Assembly (NCBI GenBank): GCA_025881525.1
Contig: GCA_025881525.1_4849.1
Origin: a phage
Direction: 5' to 3' (one strand)
DNA length: 24,537 nucleotides
Part shown: in pieces, positions 13,515-22,310 of the stretch
Layout: the number at the start of each line of letters is the position of its first letter
Numbering within the stretch: the first letter of the stretch is position 1
Notes under the pieces: model-generated
What the model was told of the DNA's origin: nothing
Database searches by the model: none
What the model saw: the letters and a program-made list of their open reading frames with translations, nothing else
Program-made: the position numbers and the translations under genes

Positions 13515-13992
13515 GTCACAAATCATGCGCGTGATTGTCAATCATCCTGGAGCAACGCGTGCATATATTGAGAAGCATTGCGGCGGAAAGCATTCAAGCA
13601 CCACAACGCACCGTCTGCATGAAATGCTTGCGCTTGGCTTCATTCGTCGCGAGAAGTCAGTGATTCGTGGTGGTAAGTGGCAGTATAAATATTTCATCTC
13701 TGATGATGCGCCTGGAATTGATGATGCGATTAAGTGCCATTTGCTTGATAACGCTGGCGCAGAAGTGAAAGATATTAGCTCAGCCACTGGCATTGATTAT
13801 CGCATCGTGAAAAGCCGCATTCGCATCATGTTTCATAACGGAGATGTGACGCGAAGCTATGATCATCATAAGAAGTTTTGGCGTTATTCATGGAAGGAGA
13901 AGGAAGTAAATGTGAGCAACCTTTTTAATTCACTCCTTCGCAACGTAAGAGGTCAGCATGGGGAAAACCAAACGCAAGAAGCAAGAGTATGA
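13504..13992 (+). CDS. putative DNA-binding protein with two winged-helix-like repeats (162 aa)
   Basis: Two similar segments (around NHPGATRAYIEKH and DNAGAEVKDISSATGIDYRIVKSRI); inferred from pattern only. Confidence 0.5.
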   Translation: MDYKSQIMRVIVNHPGATRAYIEKHCGGKHSSTTTHRLHEMLALGFIRREKSVIRGGKWQYKYFISDDAPGIDDAIKCHLLDNAGAEVKDISSATGIDYRIVKSRIRIMFHNGDVTRSYDHHKKFWRYSWKEKEVNVSNLFNSLLRNVRGQHGENQTQEARV

Positions 13993-14134
13993 AACGCTGC
14001 CACCATGCGAAATGTCAGGAATGCCGCAGCATGAGGATGTGATTCTCACCGAAGCTGAGTGGCGCAAAGTGGCAAGAGTGCAAATCATGTTCCGCAAACT
14101 TGCTGAGGACGTACTAAATGAGATGGGCTATTAA
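13958..14134 (+). CDS. hypothetical small protein (58 aa)
   Basis: ATG with GTAAGAGG RBS; overlaps 3-prime end of previous gene in another frame; below ORF-track cutoff. Confidence 0.25.
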   Translation: MGKTKRKKQEYETLPPCEMSGMPQHEDVILTEAEWRKVARVQIMFRKLAEDVLNEMGY

Positions 14135-14501
14135 GCATAAATCCGGCAGAACTCTGTTTATTACATCTGATGAGTTTATTGCCAATAACCGTAGAGAGAT
14201 GGGGTGGATAGTGGAGGAAGTGAAGATGACGAGTAGAGAGCAGTTTGAAGCAAGCTGGTTGCGACGCGGAGGTGAGGAGTCAGACCTTGTCCGTTACCAT
14301 GAAAATCACCACGAGGTTGGCAGTGGTAATGTTGGTGGTCAGTATGTGATTGATGATGTTCAAGGTCACTGGCAAACATGGCAGGCATCACGCACAGAAA
14401 TTGAGATTCAAGCGTGCCCATGCCCAAACGATCATGGACCGAATGTTGATGACCATTATCGCGAGCAAATTAATAACGCAGGCTTAAAGGTGAAAAAATG
14501 A
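14118..14501 (+). CDS. hypothetical protein (127 aa)
   Basis: ORF in plus block. Confidence 0.55.
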   Translation: MRWAIKHKSGRTLFITSDEFIANNRREMGWIVEEVKMTSREQFEASWLRRGGEESDLVRYHENHHEVGSGNVGGQYVIDDVQGHWQTWQASRTEIEIQACPCPNDHGPNVDDHYREQINNAGLKVKK

Positions 14502-14824
14502 TTATCCCATTAAACGACATCATGAAAGCAGACATCATCCAGCTTGAAAATTATGACATGCAACTGGCGTTTGAGATCGAAACTGTTGAACGTCAACTGC
14601 AATATGCGGATAAGAAGAATGATCGCATCTGGCATGAGAAAGCACTTAAGGCGCGTGACCACATGAAGCGCACGCGAGCACTTATTAAAACCCGTCTGGA
14701 TAAGCTGTATTTTGGCGAAGAGCGCATGCTGCATGGCGCGATACTGGCGCAAATCCGAAAGGAAATGCCAATTGGCAAATTCATGACATACGTTCACCGA
14801 GCAAAGCAGGAGGCTGGGTTATGA
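14498..14824 (+). CDS. hypothetical protein (108 aa)
   Basis: ORF with ATGA overlap to upstream gene. Confidence 0.55.
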   Translation: MIIPLNDIMKADIIQLENYDMQLAFEIETVERQLQYADKKNDRIWHEKALKARDHMKRTRALIKTRLDKLYFGEERMLHGAILAQIRKEMPIGKFMTYVHRAKQEAGL

Positions 14825-18138: not shown

Positions 18139-18170
18139 TAAAAAAGGGGGTTTATCCCCCTTCTTTGTAT
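18136..18170. terminator. bidirectional hairpin terminator (AAGGGGG-tttat-CCCCCTT) flanked by A-run and T-tract
   Basis: Read directly; minus-strand HNH gene stop codon lies in the loop. Confidence 0.65.
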
Positions 18171-18958
18171 CTAATTTCACCGTAAACCATGTACTGTAAC
18201 ATGTAACAAAACTCCCATTCCGTCATATCTGTCCGTAGCCACTTCCTGTTCTTCTTGTAATTGTACTCCGCCGGCTCCGCTTTTAAATTGTGAAGAGCAT
18301 TAACCAGTTCTGGATATACGAGGTTATTCTTAACAAACCAGTTGACAGATAAAATATGGTCAATATGCCAATTATTGCGGTCATCAAAACTCATCCATGG
18401 AAGCATGGTTGATTTTATATGCTTAATGAAATCATCCTTTGAGTACCCGAGAACATCATCTACCGTTCTATCAAGCGCAATGTCAGATACTCTCATATCA
18501 AGCCGCTCAAGCATTTTTCTTAGGAACACGTGGTGTGGGTGCTTCTTTTGCCATTGCCTGACATTATCCAGAGCCTTTTTATTGCCTTTCTCTGAGTAGT
18601 ACCATCTGCGATAAGCTTCCCTTTTCTTTTGTAAAAACTCCTCCTTTTTCTCTGGATTCTCGTTAAGCCTTTGCATCTTCCTTTTGTTGTACTCCTGTTG
18701 TGATTGTTTTCTTTTCTTTTTGTACTCGCTGTTATCCTTGTTTTTCTGCCACTCCTTTTTTCTGTACTCACTTTCCTTGCGTTTGCGCTCCTCTGTTGTT
18801 CTCTGCTTCCTTGTTCTTTCGTATACGCAATGCTTGCACCCACATGATGCCGTAAAAAACACAGTTCCACCACATACAGAGCATGGGACCCATTCACATA
18901 TAAATTGCTTCAATCCAGCAACTCTTGCTTCTCGCGCGGCTTCTTTTCTTGTTTTCAT
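18152..18958 (-). CDS. HNH homing endonuclease with N-terminal Cys cluster and long Lys/Arg/Glu-rich linker
   Basis: C-terminal NWHIDHILSVNWF...N motif; N-terminal CEWVPCSVCGG...CGCKHC; AT-rich coding region; opposite strand to flanking structural genes; ATG 18958 preferred over GTG 18967. Confidence 0.8.
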   Translation of the reverse strand: MKTRKEAAREARVAGLKQFICEWVPCSVCGGTVFFTASCGCKHCVYERTRKQRTTEERKRKESEYRKKEWQKNKDNSEYKKKRKQSQQEYNKRKMQRLNENPEKKEEFLQKKREAYRRWYYSEKGNKKALDNVRQWQKKHPHHVFLRKMLERLDMRVSDIALDRTVDDVLGYSKDDFIKHIKSTMLPWMSFDDRNNWHIDHILSVNWFVKNNLVYPELVNALHNLKAEPAEYNYKKNRKWLRTDMTEWEFCYMLQYMVYGEIRYKEGG

Positions 18959-19045
18959 AAAAGTCACTCCTAATTTGGTTCTATATTACTACAGGTGTAA
19001 TGAGTGTGCTACAATTGACCTGCATTAACTCATGAGGATATTTAA

Positions 19046-19283: not shown

Positions 19284-20102
19284 ATGGCTGTCAGGTACGA
19301 AATAAACACAACTCCGGCTGATGGAGAGGTTTTGCTTAGCGAAACCATGTCAGCAGACTGGTCAGCACTGCAGGTACAGATTGTGCCGCTAAATTCTTCC
19401 GGTGGCTATGAGCCATTAACAAGCGGAACCGTGTCCGTGAAGGTGTCGCCATTTGAATCTGGCAACTACTGGATTGACGTCAACAATAATAATTATTATG
19501 GCGTGGCGCTGCGACTGAAGGTGATCAAGTCACAGATACCTGCTGGCATTGCATCTCTGAAAGTCCTGGTATGGCGAACTGCTACATCAGTACCATCAAG
19601 TCAGGTTGTCGCGCAGTCCTATGCAGAGTTTGCCAACAAGCAAGGCAAGCTGTTCACTGCGTCTCGCAGAGTAACTGATGTTGCTGGCGGAGCCAGCCTT
19701 GACAGCATATTTATCACCGGAACAAAGCAGGTGATATTCAACCAGCGCATTATTGGTTACACAGGGAAAGGTGTTGTTGCATCAATCTATCGCGGTGCTG
19801 TTGCCACTGGTGGCACGGCGGCAGAGATTAACAACCCAAACGACATAACGCCACAGGCAGCCACTGCGCAGTTAATTACTGGCGCCACCGTGACAAACAT
19901 CGGGCAGCTGACGGTAGCAGCAACATACAGTGAGGGAAACGCATCGAATCAGGGGCAGGGTAACTCTCAGGCGAAGCTCGGCGAGCAGATTATCATGGCA
20001 CCAAATACGACGTATTTGCTTCGCATAACATCACTGGATACTGCGGTGCAGAATATCAATGCGTACGTTTCATGGTTTGAGGATGATACTTATCTGGCGT
20101 GA
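19284..20102 (+). CDS. hypothetical protein, Ala/Thr/Gly/Ser-rich (272 aa), possibly structural
   Basis: ATG 19284 with GGGGGT RBS; track ORF 19140-20102 would read through the terminator, so the shorter form is preferred. Confidence 0.6.
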   Translation: MAVRYEINTTPADGEVLLSETMSADWSALQVQIVPLNSSGGYEPLTSGTVSVKVSPFESGNYWIDVNNNNYYGVALRLKVIKSQIPAGIASLKVLVWRTATSVPSSQVVAQSYAEFANKQGKLFTASRRVTDVAGGASLDSIFITGTKQVIFNQRIIGYTGKGVVASIYRGAVATGGTAAEINNPNDITPQAATAQLITGATVTNIGQLTVAATYSEGNASNQGQGNSQAKLGEQIIMAPNTTYLLRITSLDTAVQNINAYVSWFEDDTYLA

Positions 20103-20104
20103 TA

Positions 20105-20135
20105 AAAGAAAAGCCCCGTGAAGGGGCTTTTTATT
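20105..20135. terminator. bidirectional hairpin terminator (AGCCCC-gtgaa-GGGGCT) flanked by A-run and T-run
   Basis: Read directly; convergent genes on both sides. Confidence 0.65.
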
Positions 20136-20136
20136 G

Positions 20137-20673
20137 CTACAGACGCATCGGCATAACAACAATCTTCGCAGCCTCGCCAGTTGGCGCACTAAGGCAGCAA
20201 ACTGCGGCATTTGTATTTCCGTTTAGTTCAAACTTAACGCTGCAGAATTTAGGATTGAACAGCTTCGTGGCTTTCTCAATATCAACAAGGTAGCCAGCAT
20301 TGAAGCCAATTTCCTCTGCTGGCAAGGTCTGATTCGGAATGACGCGATCAATATCAGGGAATCGGCCATCAATCTCTTCGCAGATACCAGCACCAACCAT
20401 TACACCAGCTTCATGATGATACGTTGCAATTTTCGAATTTGTATCAATAATGGCGTAGTCATAGCGTTTTGTTGGAGATTTCCCAATCTTGATGATCGCA
20501 TTTTCTGTCAGCTTATTGTCATGGTTGCCACCAATAAATGCGCGATGACCGTCAGTTGATGCAATGCGACCATCAGGCATGAAGCAAATACCATTCAGGT
20601 AATATCGCACATCATTGCGCGCCTGAAATATTAACGCTGATTCAAGTAATAATTTGCTGATTTTTAGTTTCAT
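20137..20673 (-). CDS. truncated beta sliding clamp (DnaN) homolog: domain II plus C-terminal part of domain III, no domain I
   Basis: Blocks DVRYYLNG, TDGHR, DGRFPD..RV.P, EIGFN and C-terminal VVMPMRL match E. coli DnaN residues about 130-366 as recalled; 178 aa versus 366 aa. Confidence 0.75.
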   Translation of the reverse strand: MKLKISKLLLESALIFQARNDVRYYLNGICFMPDGRIASTDGHRAFIGGNHDNKLTENAIIKIGKSPTKRYDYAIIDTNSKIATYHHEAGVMVGAGICEEIDGRFPDIDRVIPNQTLPAEEIGFNAGYLVDIEKATKLFNPKFCSVKFELNGNTNAAVCCLSAPTGEAAKIVVMPMRL

Positions 20674-20846
20674 CACTTCATCTTAATCATATGTTGTTTT
20701 GCAACCTTCAGGCATTCTTCAAAAATGCCACCCTTCTTTGCGCTCTGGTGACGCTTGTAATACTTAATTGCCGCATCAATTGCCATCTGGTCGATATCTG
20801 GCAGCTTGGCGCGCAGCTGTTTTTCGATAAATTGTTCAGCGTTCAT
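20673..20846 (-). CDS. hypothetical small protein (57 aa)
   Basis: Fills gap in minus operon; ATGA overlap with downstream DnaN-like gene; below ORF-track cutoff. Confidence 0.35.
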   Translation of the reverse strand: MNAEQFIEKQLRAKLPDIDQMAIDAAIKYYKRHQSAKKGGIFEECLKVAKQHMIKMK

Positions 20847-21090
20847 GATTTATCTTCACCCATCCTTTGCTTGCACCGTGCGATAAGATAAGACCTTTCT
20901 TGCGCAACGCCTGAAGGCGACGATCAAGGACTCGAAATCCCTCATGTGGTTTTGTTGATAACTTTCTGCATACAGAATGAATACCGTTACCACCAATGCC
21001 GCCATAAAAGTGGATCTCAGCGAATGTTTTTGGCTTGTTAAAATCCAACGCATTCATAATCATTGCGTCGAGTTCTTCATACTTACTCAT
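20836..21090 (-). CDS. putative winged-helix DNA-binding protein (84 aa)
   Basis: C-terminal VLDRRLQALRKKGLI resembles winged-helix recognition region; pattern-based. Confidence 0.45.
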   Translation of the reverse strand: MSKYEELDAMIMNALDFNKPKTFAEIHFYGGIGGNGIHSVCRKLSTKPHEGFRVLDRRLQALRKKGLILSHGASKGWVKINHER

Positions 21091-21899
21091 TTCATCTTCT
21101 CCAGAATTGCCATAACTTCGTGAATGTCAGCAACAGGAATCTGAATAAATTCCTCATCCTCTGCCACCACATGACCAGCAGGTAGAATTACATGGTCGGC
21201 TGGCTTCAATAACTCAATCAGGCGGTCTACTGGCTTAATCTTTTTCGACTTCAGCACTTTGGCTGTGACCTTGTCCTTGCCTTGCGCTTTGGCTTCTTCG
21301 ACTGCCTCGTCGATAACTTTAACCGCATCATCGCCATGTTCACGCGTTACTGCTACGGCATTTGCATAGCTGATTTGTCCTGCACTGATGCGCGCTTTTA
21401 CTTCTGCTGGCACATCACCCAGCGACAGGTGCATTTGCACGTCAGATACTGAGCGGCCTACCTTCTTGGCGATTTCTTCATTTGTCCAGCCAAATCCTTT
21501 CAATCGCGTGTAAGCCTTTGCACGCTCAAACGGGTCAAGCTGCTTGCCCTGACTGGATGACACCATGAAGGCGATTTTGTCCGCCTCGTCGCCAGTGAAA
21601 TCCTTGCACTCAATGCGAACGATTGGTGCGCCGCGTTCAATGGCTCGTAGTGCACCAAGATAGCGATGCTGACCATCAAGAATGCGGATTCCTTTGTCGT
21701 CAGGGATAACTGTTAATGCTGGCAATGGCTGACCTGATTCCCAGCACTGAGCGAAATATTCAACGTGTTGCTCATCTGCTTCACGGATGTTATATCCCGG
21801 CTCCAGATAGATTCGCTCCACTGGCACGAGATAGGTTTTGTTAACAGCAATACCGTTGCGCGTTTCTTTGTCTGAATAGATTTTGCTTAGTGTTTTCAT
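21087..21899 (-). CDS. ParB-like nuclease-domain protein (ParB/Srx fold with DGQHR motif) plus HTH region
   Basis: IRILDGQHRYLGAL motif; downstream segment VQMHLSLGDVPAEVKARISAGQISYANAVAV resembles ParB HTH region. Confidence 0.75.
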   Translation of the reverse strand: MKTLSKIYSDKETRNGIAVNKTYLVPVERIYLEPGYNIREADEQHVEYFAQCWESGQPLPALTVIPDDKGIRILDGQHRYLGALRAIERGAPIVRIECKDFTGDEADKIAFMVSSSQGKQLDPFERAKAYTRLKGFGWTNEEIAKKVGRSVSDVQMHLSLGDVPAEVKARISAGQISYANAVAVTREHGDDAVKVIDEAVEEAKAQGKDKVTAKVLKSKKIKPVDRLIELLKPADHVILPAGHVVAEDEEFIQIPVADIHEVMAILEKMK

Positions 21900-22222
21900 T
21901 GTTTCTTTCCTAATGCTTTCTTGATAGATTCTTCAGCTAACAGCAATTCTTCTGGGTATTGCTCATTCCAGTTTTGTTTGTATGCCTTGCCAAGCATTTT
22001 TTGCAGAGCTTCAAGCAACTCAGGTGCTGCGGCTATTAACTTTGCATTTGCACGCGTTTCATCAGCCTCTCTGGCATGAACATTTTCATAAACAGGTGTT
22101 AATACATTTGCCACCTTATATCGATGACCAATAATTGCGCCTCTGATTCTGATGTATGGCTTATCTACTTCTTCTGGTAAAACCTGCCACGGACCTTTTG
22201 TACCTTTGAATTCATCTTTCAT
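21896..22222 (-). CDS. Ead/Ea22-like phage protein
   Basis: Motif ANAKLIAAAPELLEALQKM characteristic of Ead/Ea22-like proteins (from memory); ATG 22222 with GAGGTGAGTG RBS preferred over 22240. Confidence 0.5.
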   Translation of the reverse strand: MKDEFKGTKGPWQVLPEEVDKPYIRIRGAIIGHRYKVANVLTPVYENVHAREADETRANAKLIAAAPELLEALQKMLGKAYKQNWNEQYPEELLLAEESIKKALGKKQ

Positions 22223-22249
22223 ATCACTCACCTCTAACATTTATTGTTG

Positions 22250-22310
22250 TTTCTACGTCACTAACTATAAACACGCCATCAATCTACGTCAACAGGAATA
22301 TGCTAAAATC
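22250..22310. promoter_or_regulatory. divergent promoter region with two direct copies of TCTACGTCA (22252-22260, 22283-22291); minus: TTGACG-17-TATAGT; plus: extended -10 TGcTAAAAT (22301-22309)
   Basis: Read directly; 15-mer AATCTACGTCAACAG identical to the copy at 9806-9820. Confidence 0.45.

What the first reader, a model, noticed from the sequence alone, without database searches (positions are those of the whole stretch)
20137..20673. Phage-encoded half-length beta sliding clamp (DnaN) homolog lacking domain I
The 178-aa minus-strand protein aligns block by block with the C-terminal two thirds of E. coli DnaN as I recall it: DVRYYLNG, TDGHR, DGRFPD-x3-RV-P, EIGFN and the exact C-terminal VVMPMRL. 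Domain I and the first half of domain III appear to be absent. Because the clamp is a head-to-tail dimer whose C-terminal residues help form the partner-binding cleft, a fragment retaining domain II and the C-terminus could plausibly heterodimerise with or compete against host beta clamp (replication takeover or inhibition); that function is inference. It is co-transcribed with a ParB-like protein and a winged-helix protein. The high identity in conserved blocks suggests capture from an enterobacterial dnaN.
Basis: partly seen in the sequence, partly recalled or inferred. Interest (0 to 1): 0.85.

Follow-up and report, generated by a model that had tools for sequence, protein, structure and literature searches.

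The report
Phage mini beta-clamp keeping only the partner pocket
This phage gene encodes a half-length relative of the bacterial DNA sliding clamp that has lost the parts needed to form a ring but keeps, almost residue for residue, the pocket where the host clamp docks its partner proteins. It therefore probably captures those host proteins rather than acting as a normal clamp. The family is widespread and already annotated, but its function has not been tested.

Summary
Window 20137..20673 (-) encodes a 178-aa protein homologous to DnaN (phmmer vs PDB E=1e-10; hhalign 99.3%, E=3e-20; AF2 pLDDT 93.5; Foldseek top hits all E. coli beta clamp). It consists of domain II plus only the second half of domain III, with one clean deletion of DnaN 255-313. 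That is 1.5 domains, not "two thirds".

They stay nearly invariant across 142 family representatives at about 32% identity.

Both sides of the head-to-tail dimer interface lie in the missing parts, and so do five of six DNA-contact residues. Heterodimerising with host beta is therefore unlikely. Competing for, or recruiting, CBM-bearing host proteins is the best reading.

It is not a recent enterobacterial capture. The family is old and large (all top 150 representatives are short forms), occurs in many phage types, and often sits at the head of replication modules.

GenBank already calls it "DNA pol III beta subunit", PHROGs mislabels it "RusA-like resolvase", and a 2011 survey noted short phage homologs. 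I found no functional study. Verdict: a new variant of a known kind, with a sharp and testable hypothesis.

The parts
20137..20673 (-). Mini beta-clamp CDS (178 aa plus stop). The ATG at 20673 overlaps the TGA of the upstream gene (TGATG); an alternative GTG lies at 20676.
   Evidence: homology; structure
20527..20673 (-). aa 1-49, equivalent to the first half of DnaN domain II (strand, helix, three strands). It carries pocket residues R23, L26, T40, G42, H43, R44 (= R152, L155, T172, G174, H175, R176).
   Evidence: pocket list from PMC11139829
20371..20526 (-). aa 50-101, a degenerate second half of domain II. It is a four-strand meander, and the helix present in DnaN (about 197-209) is not predicted.
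   Evidence: AF2 secondary structure; poorly conserved in the alignments
20326..20370 (-). aa 102-116, the DGRFPDIDRVIP inter-domain connector, carrying pocket residues P106, R110, V111 (= P242, R246, V247).
20140..20325 (-). aa 117-178, equivalent to the second half of DnaN domain III (314-366). It carries N125, Y128, V172, M174, P175, M176, R177 (= N320, Y323, V360, M362, P363, M364, R365). DnaN 255-313 is deleted just before it.
   Evidence: hhalign shows a single gap
20109..20131 (-). Intrinsic-terminator-like hairpin (9-bp stem, 5 GC pairs, T run) starting 6 nt after the stop codon. It lies between convergent genes.
20673..20846 (-). Upstream 57-aa gene (phrog_4439, unknown function), translationally coupled to the mini-clamp.
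20836..21090 (-). 84-aa gene (phrog_7185, unknown function). The winged-helix call is not significant.
21087..21899 (-). ParB-like protein, 270 aa (HTH_ParB E=2.6e-11; phrog_1033 E=6e-91).
21896..22240 (-). 114-aa first gene of the operon (phrog_1273, unknown function).
22264..22292 (-). Sigma-70-like promoter candidate (TTGACG, 17-nt spacer, TATAGT; 10 of 12 matches) upstream of the operon. This is a consensus match only.

Best explanation
The gene encodes a stand-alone "pocket module" of the bacterial beta sliding clamp. It is a compact 19.6-kDa protein made of the two half-domains that build the clamp-binding-motif (CBM) cleft in DnaN: the first half of domain II and the second half of domain III. 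A degenerate half-domain holds them together. It has no domain I, no ring-closing interface and almost none of the DNA-contact residues.

I propose that it works off the ring. It would be expressed early, in or near replication gene sets, and use the conserved cleft to bind the same short motifs (QLxLF / QLxLxF type) that host proteins use to dock on beta. Candidate ligands are Pol III alpha and epsilon, clamp-loader delta, Hda, MutS/MutL, Pol II/IV/V and ligase. Binding would either titrate them away from the host clamp or hold them for the phage.

Shown here: the homology, the architecture, selective conservation of the cleft, loss of the interface, the size of the family and the gene contexts.

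Inferred: that the cleft binds CBM peptides, that the protein is not a ring, and which host partner and physiological outcome (sequestration versus recruitment) apply.
For: Architecture:
- hhalign aligns aa 9-178 to DnaN 138-366 with one deletion of 255-313.
- AF2 gives a confident self-contained fold (pLDDT 93.5, pTM 0.89).
- Its best PDB matches are all beta clamps.

Pocket:
- 16 of the 17 cleft residues I could map are identical to E. coli beta; L177 is A.
- Within the family, pocket positions have mean entropy 0.79 against 2.06 for the rest (Mann-Whitney p=1.2e-7).
- Across 142 representatives at a median 32% identity: G174 and P242 are 143/143, R152 142, M362 140, L155/T172/H175 137, Y323 135, P363 132.

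Losses:
- All dimer-interface residues lie in absent segments.
- Five of the six DNA-contact residues (Q15, G23, R24, R73, R80) lie in absent segments.

Other support:
- Review PMC11139829 reports that delta binds monomeric beta about 50-fold tighter than the dimer, so an off-ring pocket can be a strong ligand trap.
- It is a real, selected family. All 150 best 50%-identity representatives are short; most are complete proteins of 165-225 aa matching over their full length, and a few are partial fragments. 280 phage records carry it. BFVD holds many short phage forms with TM 0.8-0.9.
- Context: between cII and the O-like initiator plus DnaB-type helicase in P22/lambda-like prophages; first gene after the repressor in an operon with exonuclease, ssDNA-binding protein and PolA; next to a lambda-P-like gene.
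- The Swiduovirus-type relative encodes a primase, helicase, exonuclease and recombinase but no DNA polymerase, so it depends on host Pol III.
- There is no conserved phage neighbour across clades, and no canonical CBM in neighbouring phage proteins. This points to host ligands.
Against: - There is no binding or genetic experiment. Pocket residues also serve the fold, so their conservation alone does not prove ligand binding.
- L177 is A here, and R176 and M364 vary across the family, so specificity may differ from beta.
- A general CBM sink would also hurt a phage that relies on host Pol III, so selectivity or recruitment must be assumed.
- A linker-fused tandem dimer was predicted with pTM 0.77 and gained strands at aa 121-125 and 145-149. 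The protein may therefore assemble into something larger.
- The family pI (median 7.7, against 5.25 for DnaN) is shifted toward that of DNA-binding non-ring clamps.
Confidence: 0.5

Rival explanations
1. It is a genuine processivity factor. The 1.5-domain protomers would assemble into a DNA-embracing structure, either a dimeric C-clamp or a tetrameric ring of six pseudo-domains, or bind DNA directly like herpesvirus UL42/UL44. That structure would tether host Pol III or a phage PolA to phage DNA through the conserved pocket, possibly without a clamp loader.
For: - The pocket is conserved exactly as a polymerase tether would need.
- The tandem-dimer AF2 model has pTM 0.77, well above the roughly 0.45 I would expect for two unplaced halves. 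New strands appear at the first strand of the half-domain, suggesting two half-domains could pair into a full one.
- pI is 7.6 (family median 7.7) against 5.25 for DnaN. PMC3201878 uses raised pI as a mark of non-ring, directly DNA-binding clamps.
- The gene sits in replication modules, including phages with their own PolA.
Against: - Interface residues and five of six DNA-contact residues are absent.
- One of the three channel-lining helices expected for 1.5 domains is lost.
- The monomer model is already compact and confident.
- No CBM was found in the phage PolA or replication proteins examined.
- Linker-fused homodimer predictions that use duplicated alignments can turn intrachain signal into false interfaces. 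I could not inspect coordinates, and the Foldseek comparison of the dimer with beta was uninformative (TM 0.33).
Confidence: 0.22
2. It is a poison subunit. The fragment would pair head-to-tail with a host beta monomer, making dead or open clamps and so blocking host replication.
For: It shares the clamp fold. Beta-sheet edges can in principle pair. No experiment excludes it.
Against: - The fragment has neither domain I nor the domain III elements (helix with I272/L273, strand E298-E304) that form the only known interface.
- The host dimer is extremely stable, with a picomolar Kd per PMC11139829.
- The phage itself needs host Pol III and beta.
Confidence: 0.05
3. It is a RusA-like Holliday-junction resolvase, as RefSeq and Pharokka-style annotation of relatives states.
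For: The only support is the label of phrog_3007, which the protein matches over its full length (E=7e-61). That label has been copied into many RefSeq phage records.
Against: - There is no Pfam RusA hit even at E<=1.
- Sequence, profile and fold all identify a beta-clamp.
- Depositors of the same genes call them DNA pol III beta.
- The label is best explained as an annotation error attached to the PHROG.
Confidence: 0.01
4. The conserved cleft serves a ligand other than canonical CBM proteins. Examples are a single-stranded or primed-template 3' end (as seen for beta in PDB 3BEP), a phage protein with a non-canonical motif, or a host defence toxin that targets the clamp. In the last case the protein would be a protective decoy.
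For: - The beta pocket binds ssDNA in the crystal (PMC11139829).
- In several virulent phages the gene is a lone antisense "moron" inside the head module, typical of accessory or anti-host genes.
- In the window it shares an operon with a ParB-like protein, and in relatives with a DNA methylase.
Against: There is no specific evidence for it. PADLOC gives no hits. No candidate phage ligand was found.
Confidence: 0.15

Closest known systems
Bacterial beta sliding clamp DnaN (E. coli beta; PDB 2POL/1MMI; TIGR00663; Pfam PF00712 + PF02767 + PF02768)
   Same: Homologous fold (hhalign 99.3%; Foldseek TMq 0.66-0.69). The clamp-binding-motif cleft is identical at 16 of 17 mapped residues, including the C-terminal VVMPMRL.
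   Different: - 178 aa instead of 366 aa.
- Domain I and DnaN 255-313 are absent.
- No dimer-interface residues; five of six DNA contacts gone; one helix lost.
- Below every curated cutoff: TIGR00663 31 bits against 137.65, and Pfam 15 and 14 bits against 27.
- It cannot form the canonical head-to-tail ring.
Short phage polIII-beta homologs (phrog_3007), e.g. Bcep781 gp15 "DNA Pol III b subunit fragment", Sodalis phage SO-1 gp07, Kagunavirus FE3_005, Burkholderia phage AH2 gp20. Noted in Kazlauskas & Venclovas 2011 (PMC3201878).
   Same: This is the family the protein belongs to. It gives a full-length match (E=7e-61), has the same length class and the same conserved blocks.
   Different: Nothing essential. 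The literature describes these proteins as covering "the second and third domains" and assigns no function. Here the architecture is refined to 1.5 domains centred on the pocket.
E. coli beta* (the UV-inducible 26-kDa product of an internal dnaN start; Skaliter/Paz-Elizur/Livneh 1996). Recalled from memory, not checked here.
   Same: It is an N-terminally truncated clamp lacking domain I that starts near the same position and retains the pocket.
   Different: Beta* keeps the whole of domain III and was reported to oligomerise and stimulate Pol III. The phage protein lacks half of domain III and is a separate, ancient gene family.
Non-ring viral processivity factors HSV UL42 (monomer) and HCMV UL44 (C-shaped dimer)
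   Same: They are clamp-fold proteins that do not close a ring yet use the equivalent partner-binding region, and they have a raised pI relative to ring clamps (as discussed in PMC3201878).
   Different: They have two full PCNA-like domains, are eukaryotic-virus proteins, and have demonstrated direct DNA binding. No homology beyond the fold was tested here.
Phage proteins that target the host clamp hub: Twort Gp168 and G1 gp240 (inhibitors), Mu MuC (uses a CBM to enlist beta for late transcription; PMC12867686), T4 gp45
   Same: They have the same strategic target, the network of clamp-partner interactions.
   Different: Those are ligands of the clamp, or full clamps. This protein is a copy of the clamp's docking site itself.

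Membership tests
DnaN / beta sliding clamp (TIGR00663 equivalog) | Three tandem clamp domains (N, central, C), about 366 aa, scoring above the curated cutoffs | tested here: not met
   178 aa. TIGR00663 scores 31 bits against a cutoff of 137.65. PF02767 scores 15.1 and PF02768 14.1 against 27, and there is no PF00712 hit.
DnaN / beta sliding clamp (TIGR00663 equivalog) | Homologous clamp-domain fold | tested here: met
   hhalign 99.3%, E=3.3e-20. AF2 pLDDT 93.5. Foldseek PDB top 50 are all beta clamps, E=4.5e-8.
DnaN / beta sliding clamp (TIGR00663 equivalog) | Head-to-tail dimer interface (I78, F106, K74, R96, R103, R105 with I272, L273, E298-E304) | tested here: not met
   All of these residues fall in DnaN 1-129 or 255-313, which have no counterpart in the protein.
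DnaN / beta sliding clamp (TIGR00663 equivalog) | Clamp-binding-motif pocket (subsites I and II) | tested here: met
   16 of 17 mapped residues are identical, and they are nearly invariant in the family. This is sequence-level evidence only; binding was not tested.
DnaN / beta sliding clamp (TIGR00663 equivalog) | DNA-contact residues of the loaded clamp (Q15, G23, R24, R73, R80, Q149) | tested here: not met
   Five of the six are in the absent domain I. Q149 corresponds to N20.
DnaN / beta sliding clamp (TIGR00663 equivalog) | Closed ring loaded on DNA by a clamp loader, conferring processivity | not testable with these tools
   The only evidence is an indirect hint of self-association from a linker-fused AF2 dimer (pTM 0.77).
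Short phage beta-clamp-like proteins (phrog_3007) | Full-length match to the family profile, length about 165-225 aa, phage or prophage origin | tested here: met
   phrog_3007 E=7e-61 over aa 1-178. 714 close and thousands of distant short homologs. 280 phage records.
RusA Holliday-junction resolvase (the label attached to phrog_3007) | RusA fold or Pfam RusA domain | tested here: not met
   No RusA hit at E<=1. The fold is a beta clamp.
E. coli beta* (internal-start DnaN) | Domain II plus a complete domain III, encoded within dnaN | tested here: not met
   The first half of domain III is deleted. The gene is an independent phage gene at 28% identity to DnaN.

The most novel reading that the evidence does not exclude
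A very widespread class of phage proteins mimics the docking site of the host replication hub rather than the hub itself. It would be an off-DNA, pocket-only beta-clamp that captures clamp-binding-motif proteins (for example delta, Hda, MutS/L, translesion polymerases or Pol III alpha). The captured proteins would either be disabled as host functions or diverted to the phage replisome. This would be a host-takeover principle, "interaction-hub mimicry", not yet described for bacterial clamps.
Probability: 0.4. Interest if true: 0.8.

Novelty: new variant of a known kind. Interest (0 to 1): 0.6.

Why it matters
The beta clamp is the central docking hub of bacterial replication and repair, and an antibiotic target. 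If phages routinely deploy a free copy of its docking cleft, three things follow:
- It would reveal a new way for viruses to rewire host DNA metabolism.
- It would provide a natural minimal scaffold (19.6 kDa, probably not ring-forming) for studying or screening clamp-pocket ligands.
- It would explain a gene that is annotated inconsistently ("DNA polymerase III beta", "DNA polymerase", "RusA-like resolvase") in hundreds of therapeutic-candidate phage genomes.

It also corrects a propagating annotation error.

Tried and rejected
- **Phage-encoded ligands with a clamp-binding motif.** I scanned window ORFs, the whole swi2 genome and the replication neighbours in prophage loci. The only hit in a real gene, QMHLSL in the ParB-like protein, lies in the HTH recognition-helix region of the ParB fold, so I rejected it as chance. 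The 57-, 84- and 114-aa operon proteins have no motif.
- **Tandem dimer against PDB.** This was meant to show whether two protomers rebuild a three-domain arc. TM was 0.33 with rmsd about 21 Å.
- **Defence or anti-defence libraries.** PADLOC gave no hits for any operon protein.
- **Literature.** Six searches found no functional study, only annotations and the 2011 survey remark.
- **E. coli prophage prevalence.** A blastn of a prophage variant against complete E. coli genomes found nothing.
- **Recent capture.** I rejected this on divergence.
- **Pseudogene or fragment.** I rejected this because of the constant length and deep conservation.

Full report
**What the window is.** The 24.5-kb window is a siphophage genome segment. 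It is about 91% identical over 75% of its length to Escherichia phage vB_EcoS_swi2 (Swiduovirus) and its relatives C1, SeSz-2, IME207 and Sf11. It carries the terminase, portal, head and lysis genes. Small blocks of genes on the opposite strand interrupt them. The complete swi2 genome encodes a primase, helicase, exonuclease VIII and recombinase but no DNA polymerase, so this phage type must use host Pol III.

**The observation.**
- The ORF at 20137..20673 (-) is real and encodes 178 aa.
- Its ATG overlaps the stop of the upstream 57-aa gene (TGATG).
- Upstream lie an 84-aa gene, a ParB-like gene (HTH_ParB E=2.6e-11; phrog_1033 E=6e-91) and a 114-aa gene, all overlapping or abutting.
- A sigma-70-like site sits at 22292..22264, and a 9-bp GC-rich hairpin with a T run starts 6 nt after the stop.
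- Co-transcription as a five-gene operon is therefore plausible. The promoter is only a consensus match, and the winged-helix call for the 84-aa protein is not significant (E=0.18).

**Homology to DnaN.** The evidence is significant by every route:

| Method | Result |
|---|---|
| phmmer vs PDB | E=3e-11 to 1e-10 against enterobacterial beta clamps |
| BLASTP vs E. coli DnaN | two segments, E=3e-11 and 7e-6 |
| TIGR00663 | E=1.3e-7 |
| phrog_947 (processivity factor) | E=7e-10 |
| hhalign, 88-sequence family profile vs DnaN | 99.3%, E=3.3e-20 |

The two Pfam domain hits are individually below threshold. The hhalign alignment is decisive for architecture. Residues 9-178 align to DnaN 138-366 with a single gap that removes DnaN 255-313.

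An AlphaFold2 model built on the family alignment is confident (mean pLDDT 93.5, pTM 0.89). Foldseek against the PDB returns only beta clamps at the top (E=4.5e-8, TMq 0.66-0.69).

The predicted secondary structure starts with a strand and a helix, exactly at the domain I/II boundary. It has only two long helices (aa 7-16 and 126-139). The stretch equivalent to the second helix of domain II is a short loop. So the protein is:
- the first half of domain II,
- a degenerate, helix-less second half of domain II,
- the DGRFPD..RV.P connector,
- the second half of domain III.

That is 1.5 domains, not two thirds of DnaN.

**What is kept and what is lost.** I used the residue lists in the 2024 beta-clamp review (PMC11139829). 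I checked that my E. coli DnaN sequence carries the named residues at the named positions.
- Kept: 16 of the 17 clamp-binding-motif pocket residues that could be mapped are identical: R152, L155, T172, G174, H175, R176, P242, R246, V247, N320, Y323, V360, M362, P363, M364, R365. L177 is Ala.
- Lost: every residue of the head-to-tail dimer interface lies in the missing domain I or the missing DnaN 255-313. These are I78, F106, K74, R96, R103, R105 on one side and I272, L273, E298-E304 on the other.
- Lost: five of the six residues that contact DNA in the loaded clamp (Q15, G23, R24, R73, R80) are in domain I.

The halves kept are exactly the two half-domains that face each other across that cleft.

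**Is the cleft under selection in the phage family?** Yes.
- In the 88-sequence alignment, pocket positions have mean column entropy 0.79 against 2.06 for the rest (Mann-Whitney p=1.2e-7). Twelve of the 21 most conserved positions are pocket residues, and most of the others are their immediate neighbours.
- In 142 representatives of 50%-identity clusters, with median identity to the query of only 32%, conservation remains very high:

| DnaN position | Conserved in (of 143) |
|---|---|
| G174, P242 | 143 |
| R152 | 142 |
| M362 | 140 |
| L155, T172, H175 | 137 |
| Y323 | 135 |
| P363 | 132 |
| R365 | 119, plus 10 Lys |
| N320 | 111 |

The middle half-domain and all loops vary freely.

**Size and age of the family.**
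- A profile search of 1.84 billion cluster representatives gave 13,395 hits at E<=1e-3 and 3,751 at E<=1e-10.
- All of the best 150 are short. Most are complete proteins of 165-225 aa matching over their full length; a few are partial fragments.
- Word-indexed searches gave 714 close and more than 5,000 broader homologs.
- 280 of 50,697 phage records encode one. They include Swiduovirus-like phages, Dhillonvirus, Kagunavirus, Naesvirus (Bcep781), and Vibrio, Acinetobacter, Pantoea, Serratia and Klebsiella phages.
- BFVD holds many short phage forms with TM 0.8-0.9 to the model, plus looser 200-266-aa forms in Rhodococcus, Gordonia and Bacillus phages.
- The Burkholderia phage member matches E. 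coli DnaN at E=6.5e-13, slightly better than the window protein does. Identity of the window protein to E. coli DnaN is 28%.

This is an old, diversified phage gene family of proteobacterial DnaN ancestry, not a recent enterobacterial capture and not a decaying fragment.

**Gene context elsewhere.**
- In P22/lambda-like prophages the order is repressor <- -> cro, cII, mini-clamp, DUF2740, O-like initiator (phrog_345, E=2e-64), DnaB-type helicase, then the nin region.
- In another temperate type it is the first gene after the repressor. It heads an operon with a PD-(D/E)XK exonuclease, an Enc34-type ssDNA-binding protein and a family-A polymerase.
- In metagenomic lambdoid contigs it follows a lambda-P-like gene.
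- In a Vibrio phage it lies among methylase and SSB genes.
- In Dhillonvirus SO-1, Kagunavirus and Bcep781 it is a lone antisense gene inside the head module. The SO-1 record calls it a possible moron.

There is thus a recurrent association with early and replication genes, but no conserved phage partner. It occurs in phages both with and without their own polymerase.

**Mechanism.** The simplest reading of [quoted passage not shown] is a free docking-site module that binds the same short motifs as host beta. The review notes that delta binds monomeric beta about 50-fold more tightly than the dimer, so an off-ring cleft can be a potent ligand trap.

Whether the outcome is sequestration (of Hda, MutS/L, translesion polymerases or delta) or recruitment of Pol III or the clamp loader to phage DNA cannot be decided here. 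A non-selective sink would harm a phage that depends on Pol III, which argues for selectivity or recruitment.

**The main rival.** The protein could self-assemble and be a real processivity factor. A linker-fused tandem dimer gave pTM 0.77, with the linker disordered. It also gained beta-strands at aa 121-125 and 145-149, the edge left bare by the missing half-domain. That is what one would expect if two half-domains pair into a full pseudo-domain. The family pI (median 7.7, against 5.25 for DnaN) leans toward the values PMC3201878 associates with non-ring, DNA-binding clamps.

However, duplicated-alignment dimers are prone to false interfaces. I could not inspect contacts, and the structural comparison of the dimer was uninformative. 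I put the off-ring pocket model at 0.5 and the clamp or C-clamp rival at about 0.2.

Heterodimerising with host beta is unlikely because neither side of the interface is present. The "RusA-like Holliday junction resolvase" label in RefSeq records comes from the phrog_3007 annotation and is contradicted by sequence and fold.

**Prior knowledge.**
- Depositors have long labelled these genes "DNA polymerase III beta subunit (fragment)".
- I found no experimental or structural study in the searchable library, and no PDB entry other than full clamps.

The existence of the gene is therefore known. The pocket-centred 1.5-domain architecture, the selective conservation of the cleft, the loss of both interface halves and the scale of the family are refinements that turn it into a testable hypothesis.

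**Verdict.** This is a new variant of a known kind, with interest 0.6.

Noticed in passing
window 20137-20673, and RefSeq relatives (e.g. NC_054649.1 gp73, NC_013600.1 gp07, NC_004333.2 gp15): PHROG family 3007 carries the label "RusA-like Holliday junction resolvase", although its members are beta-clamp homologs. The wrong name has propagated into many RefSeq and Pharokka-annotated phage genomes, while the original GenBank depositors wrote "DNA polymerase III beta subunit".
   Followed up: yes
window 18152-18967 (-): A 271-aa lysine- and arginine-rich ORF with Cys-rich N-terminal motifs matches phrog_1035 "endonuclease VII" (E=1.5e-17). It sits antisense directly after the major capsid gene. 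It looks like a mobile (homing) endonuclease insertion.
   Followed up: partly
window 21087-21899 (-), aa 155-160: The ParB-like protein contains QMHLSL, which fits the hexameric clamp-binding-motif pattern. It lies in the HTH recognition-helix region typical of ParB, so it is probably a chance match. It would be worth a look if the mini-clamp is ever tested against operon partners.
   Followed up: partly
L013 9708-11009 and 11535-12083; L014 10713-12017 and 12032-12580: In the Enc34-like prophages, the DUF2800 PD-(D/E)XK exonuclease and the Enc34-type ssDNA-binding protein end in near-identical acidic tails (DFDDVSDDALAADLI and DFDDISEGADADALI). These resemble the SSB C-terminal tip and suggest a shared docking partner.
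   Followed up: no
window 19284-20099 (+): A 272-aa protein of unknown function (phrog_5335, E=5.5e-69) converges on the mini-clamp gene and appears to share the hairpin at 20109-20131 as a bidirectional terminator. The longest ORF call (from 19140) probably starts too early.
   Followed up: partly
L001 (OQ469755.1) 13843-14640, compared with window 20836-21090: The slot between the ParB-like gene and the 57-aa gene is variable among close relatives. It holds a C-specific DNA methylase in ST1UNAM, HC6 and 6947, but an 84-aa protein in the window and in swi2. This is consistent with an accessory or anti-restriction gene cassette.
   Followed up: no
family members P0044, P0061, P0065 and others (192-193 aa): A subset of close homologs is called with a 14-residue N-terminal extension (MSEGCKTTHDKGEV...). 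This could be a start-codon miscall or a real variant, and was not resolved.
   Followed up: no
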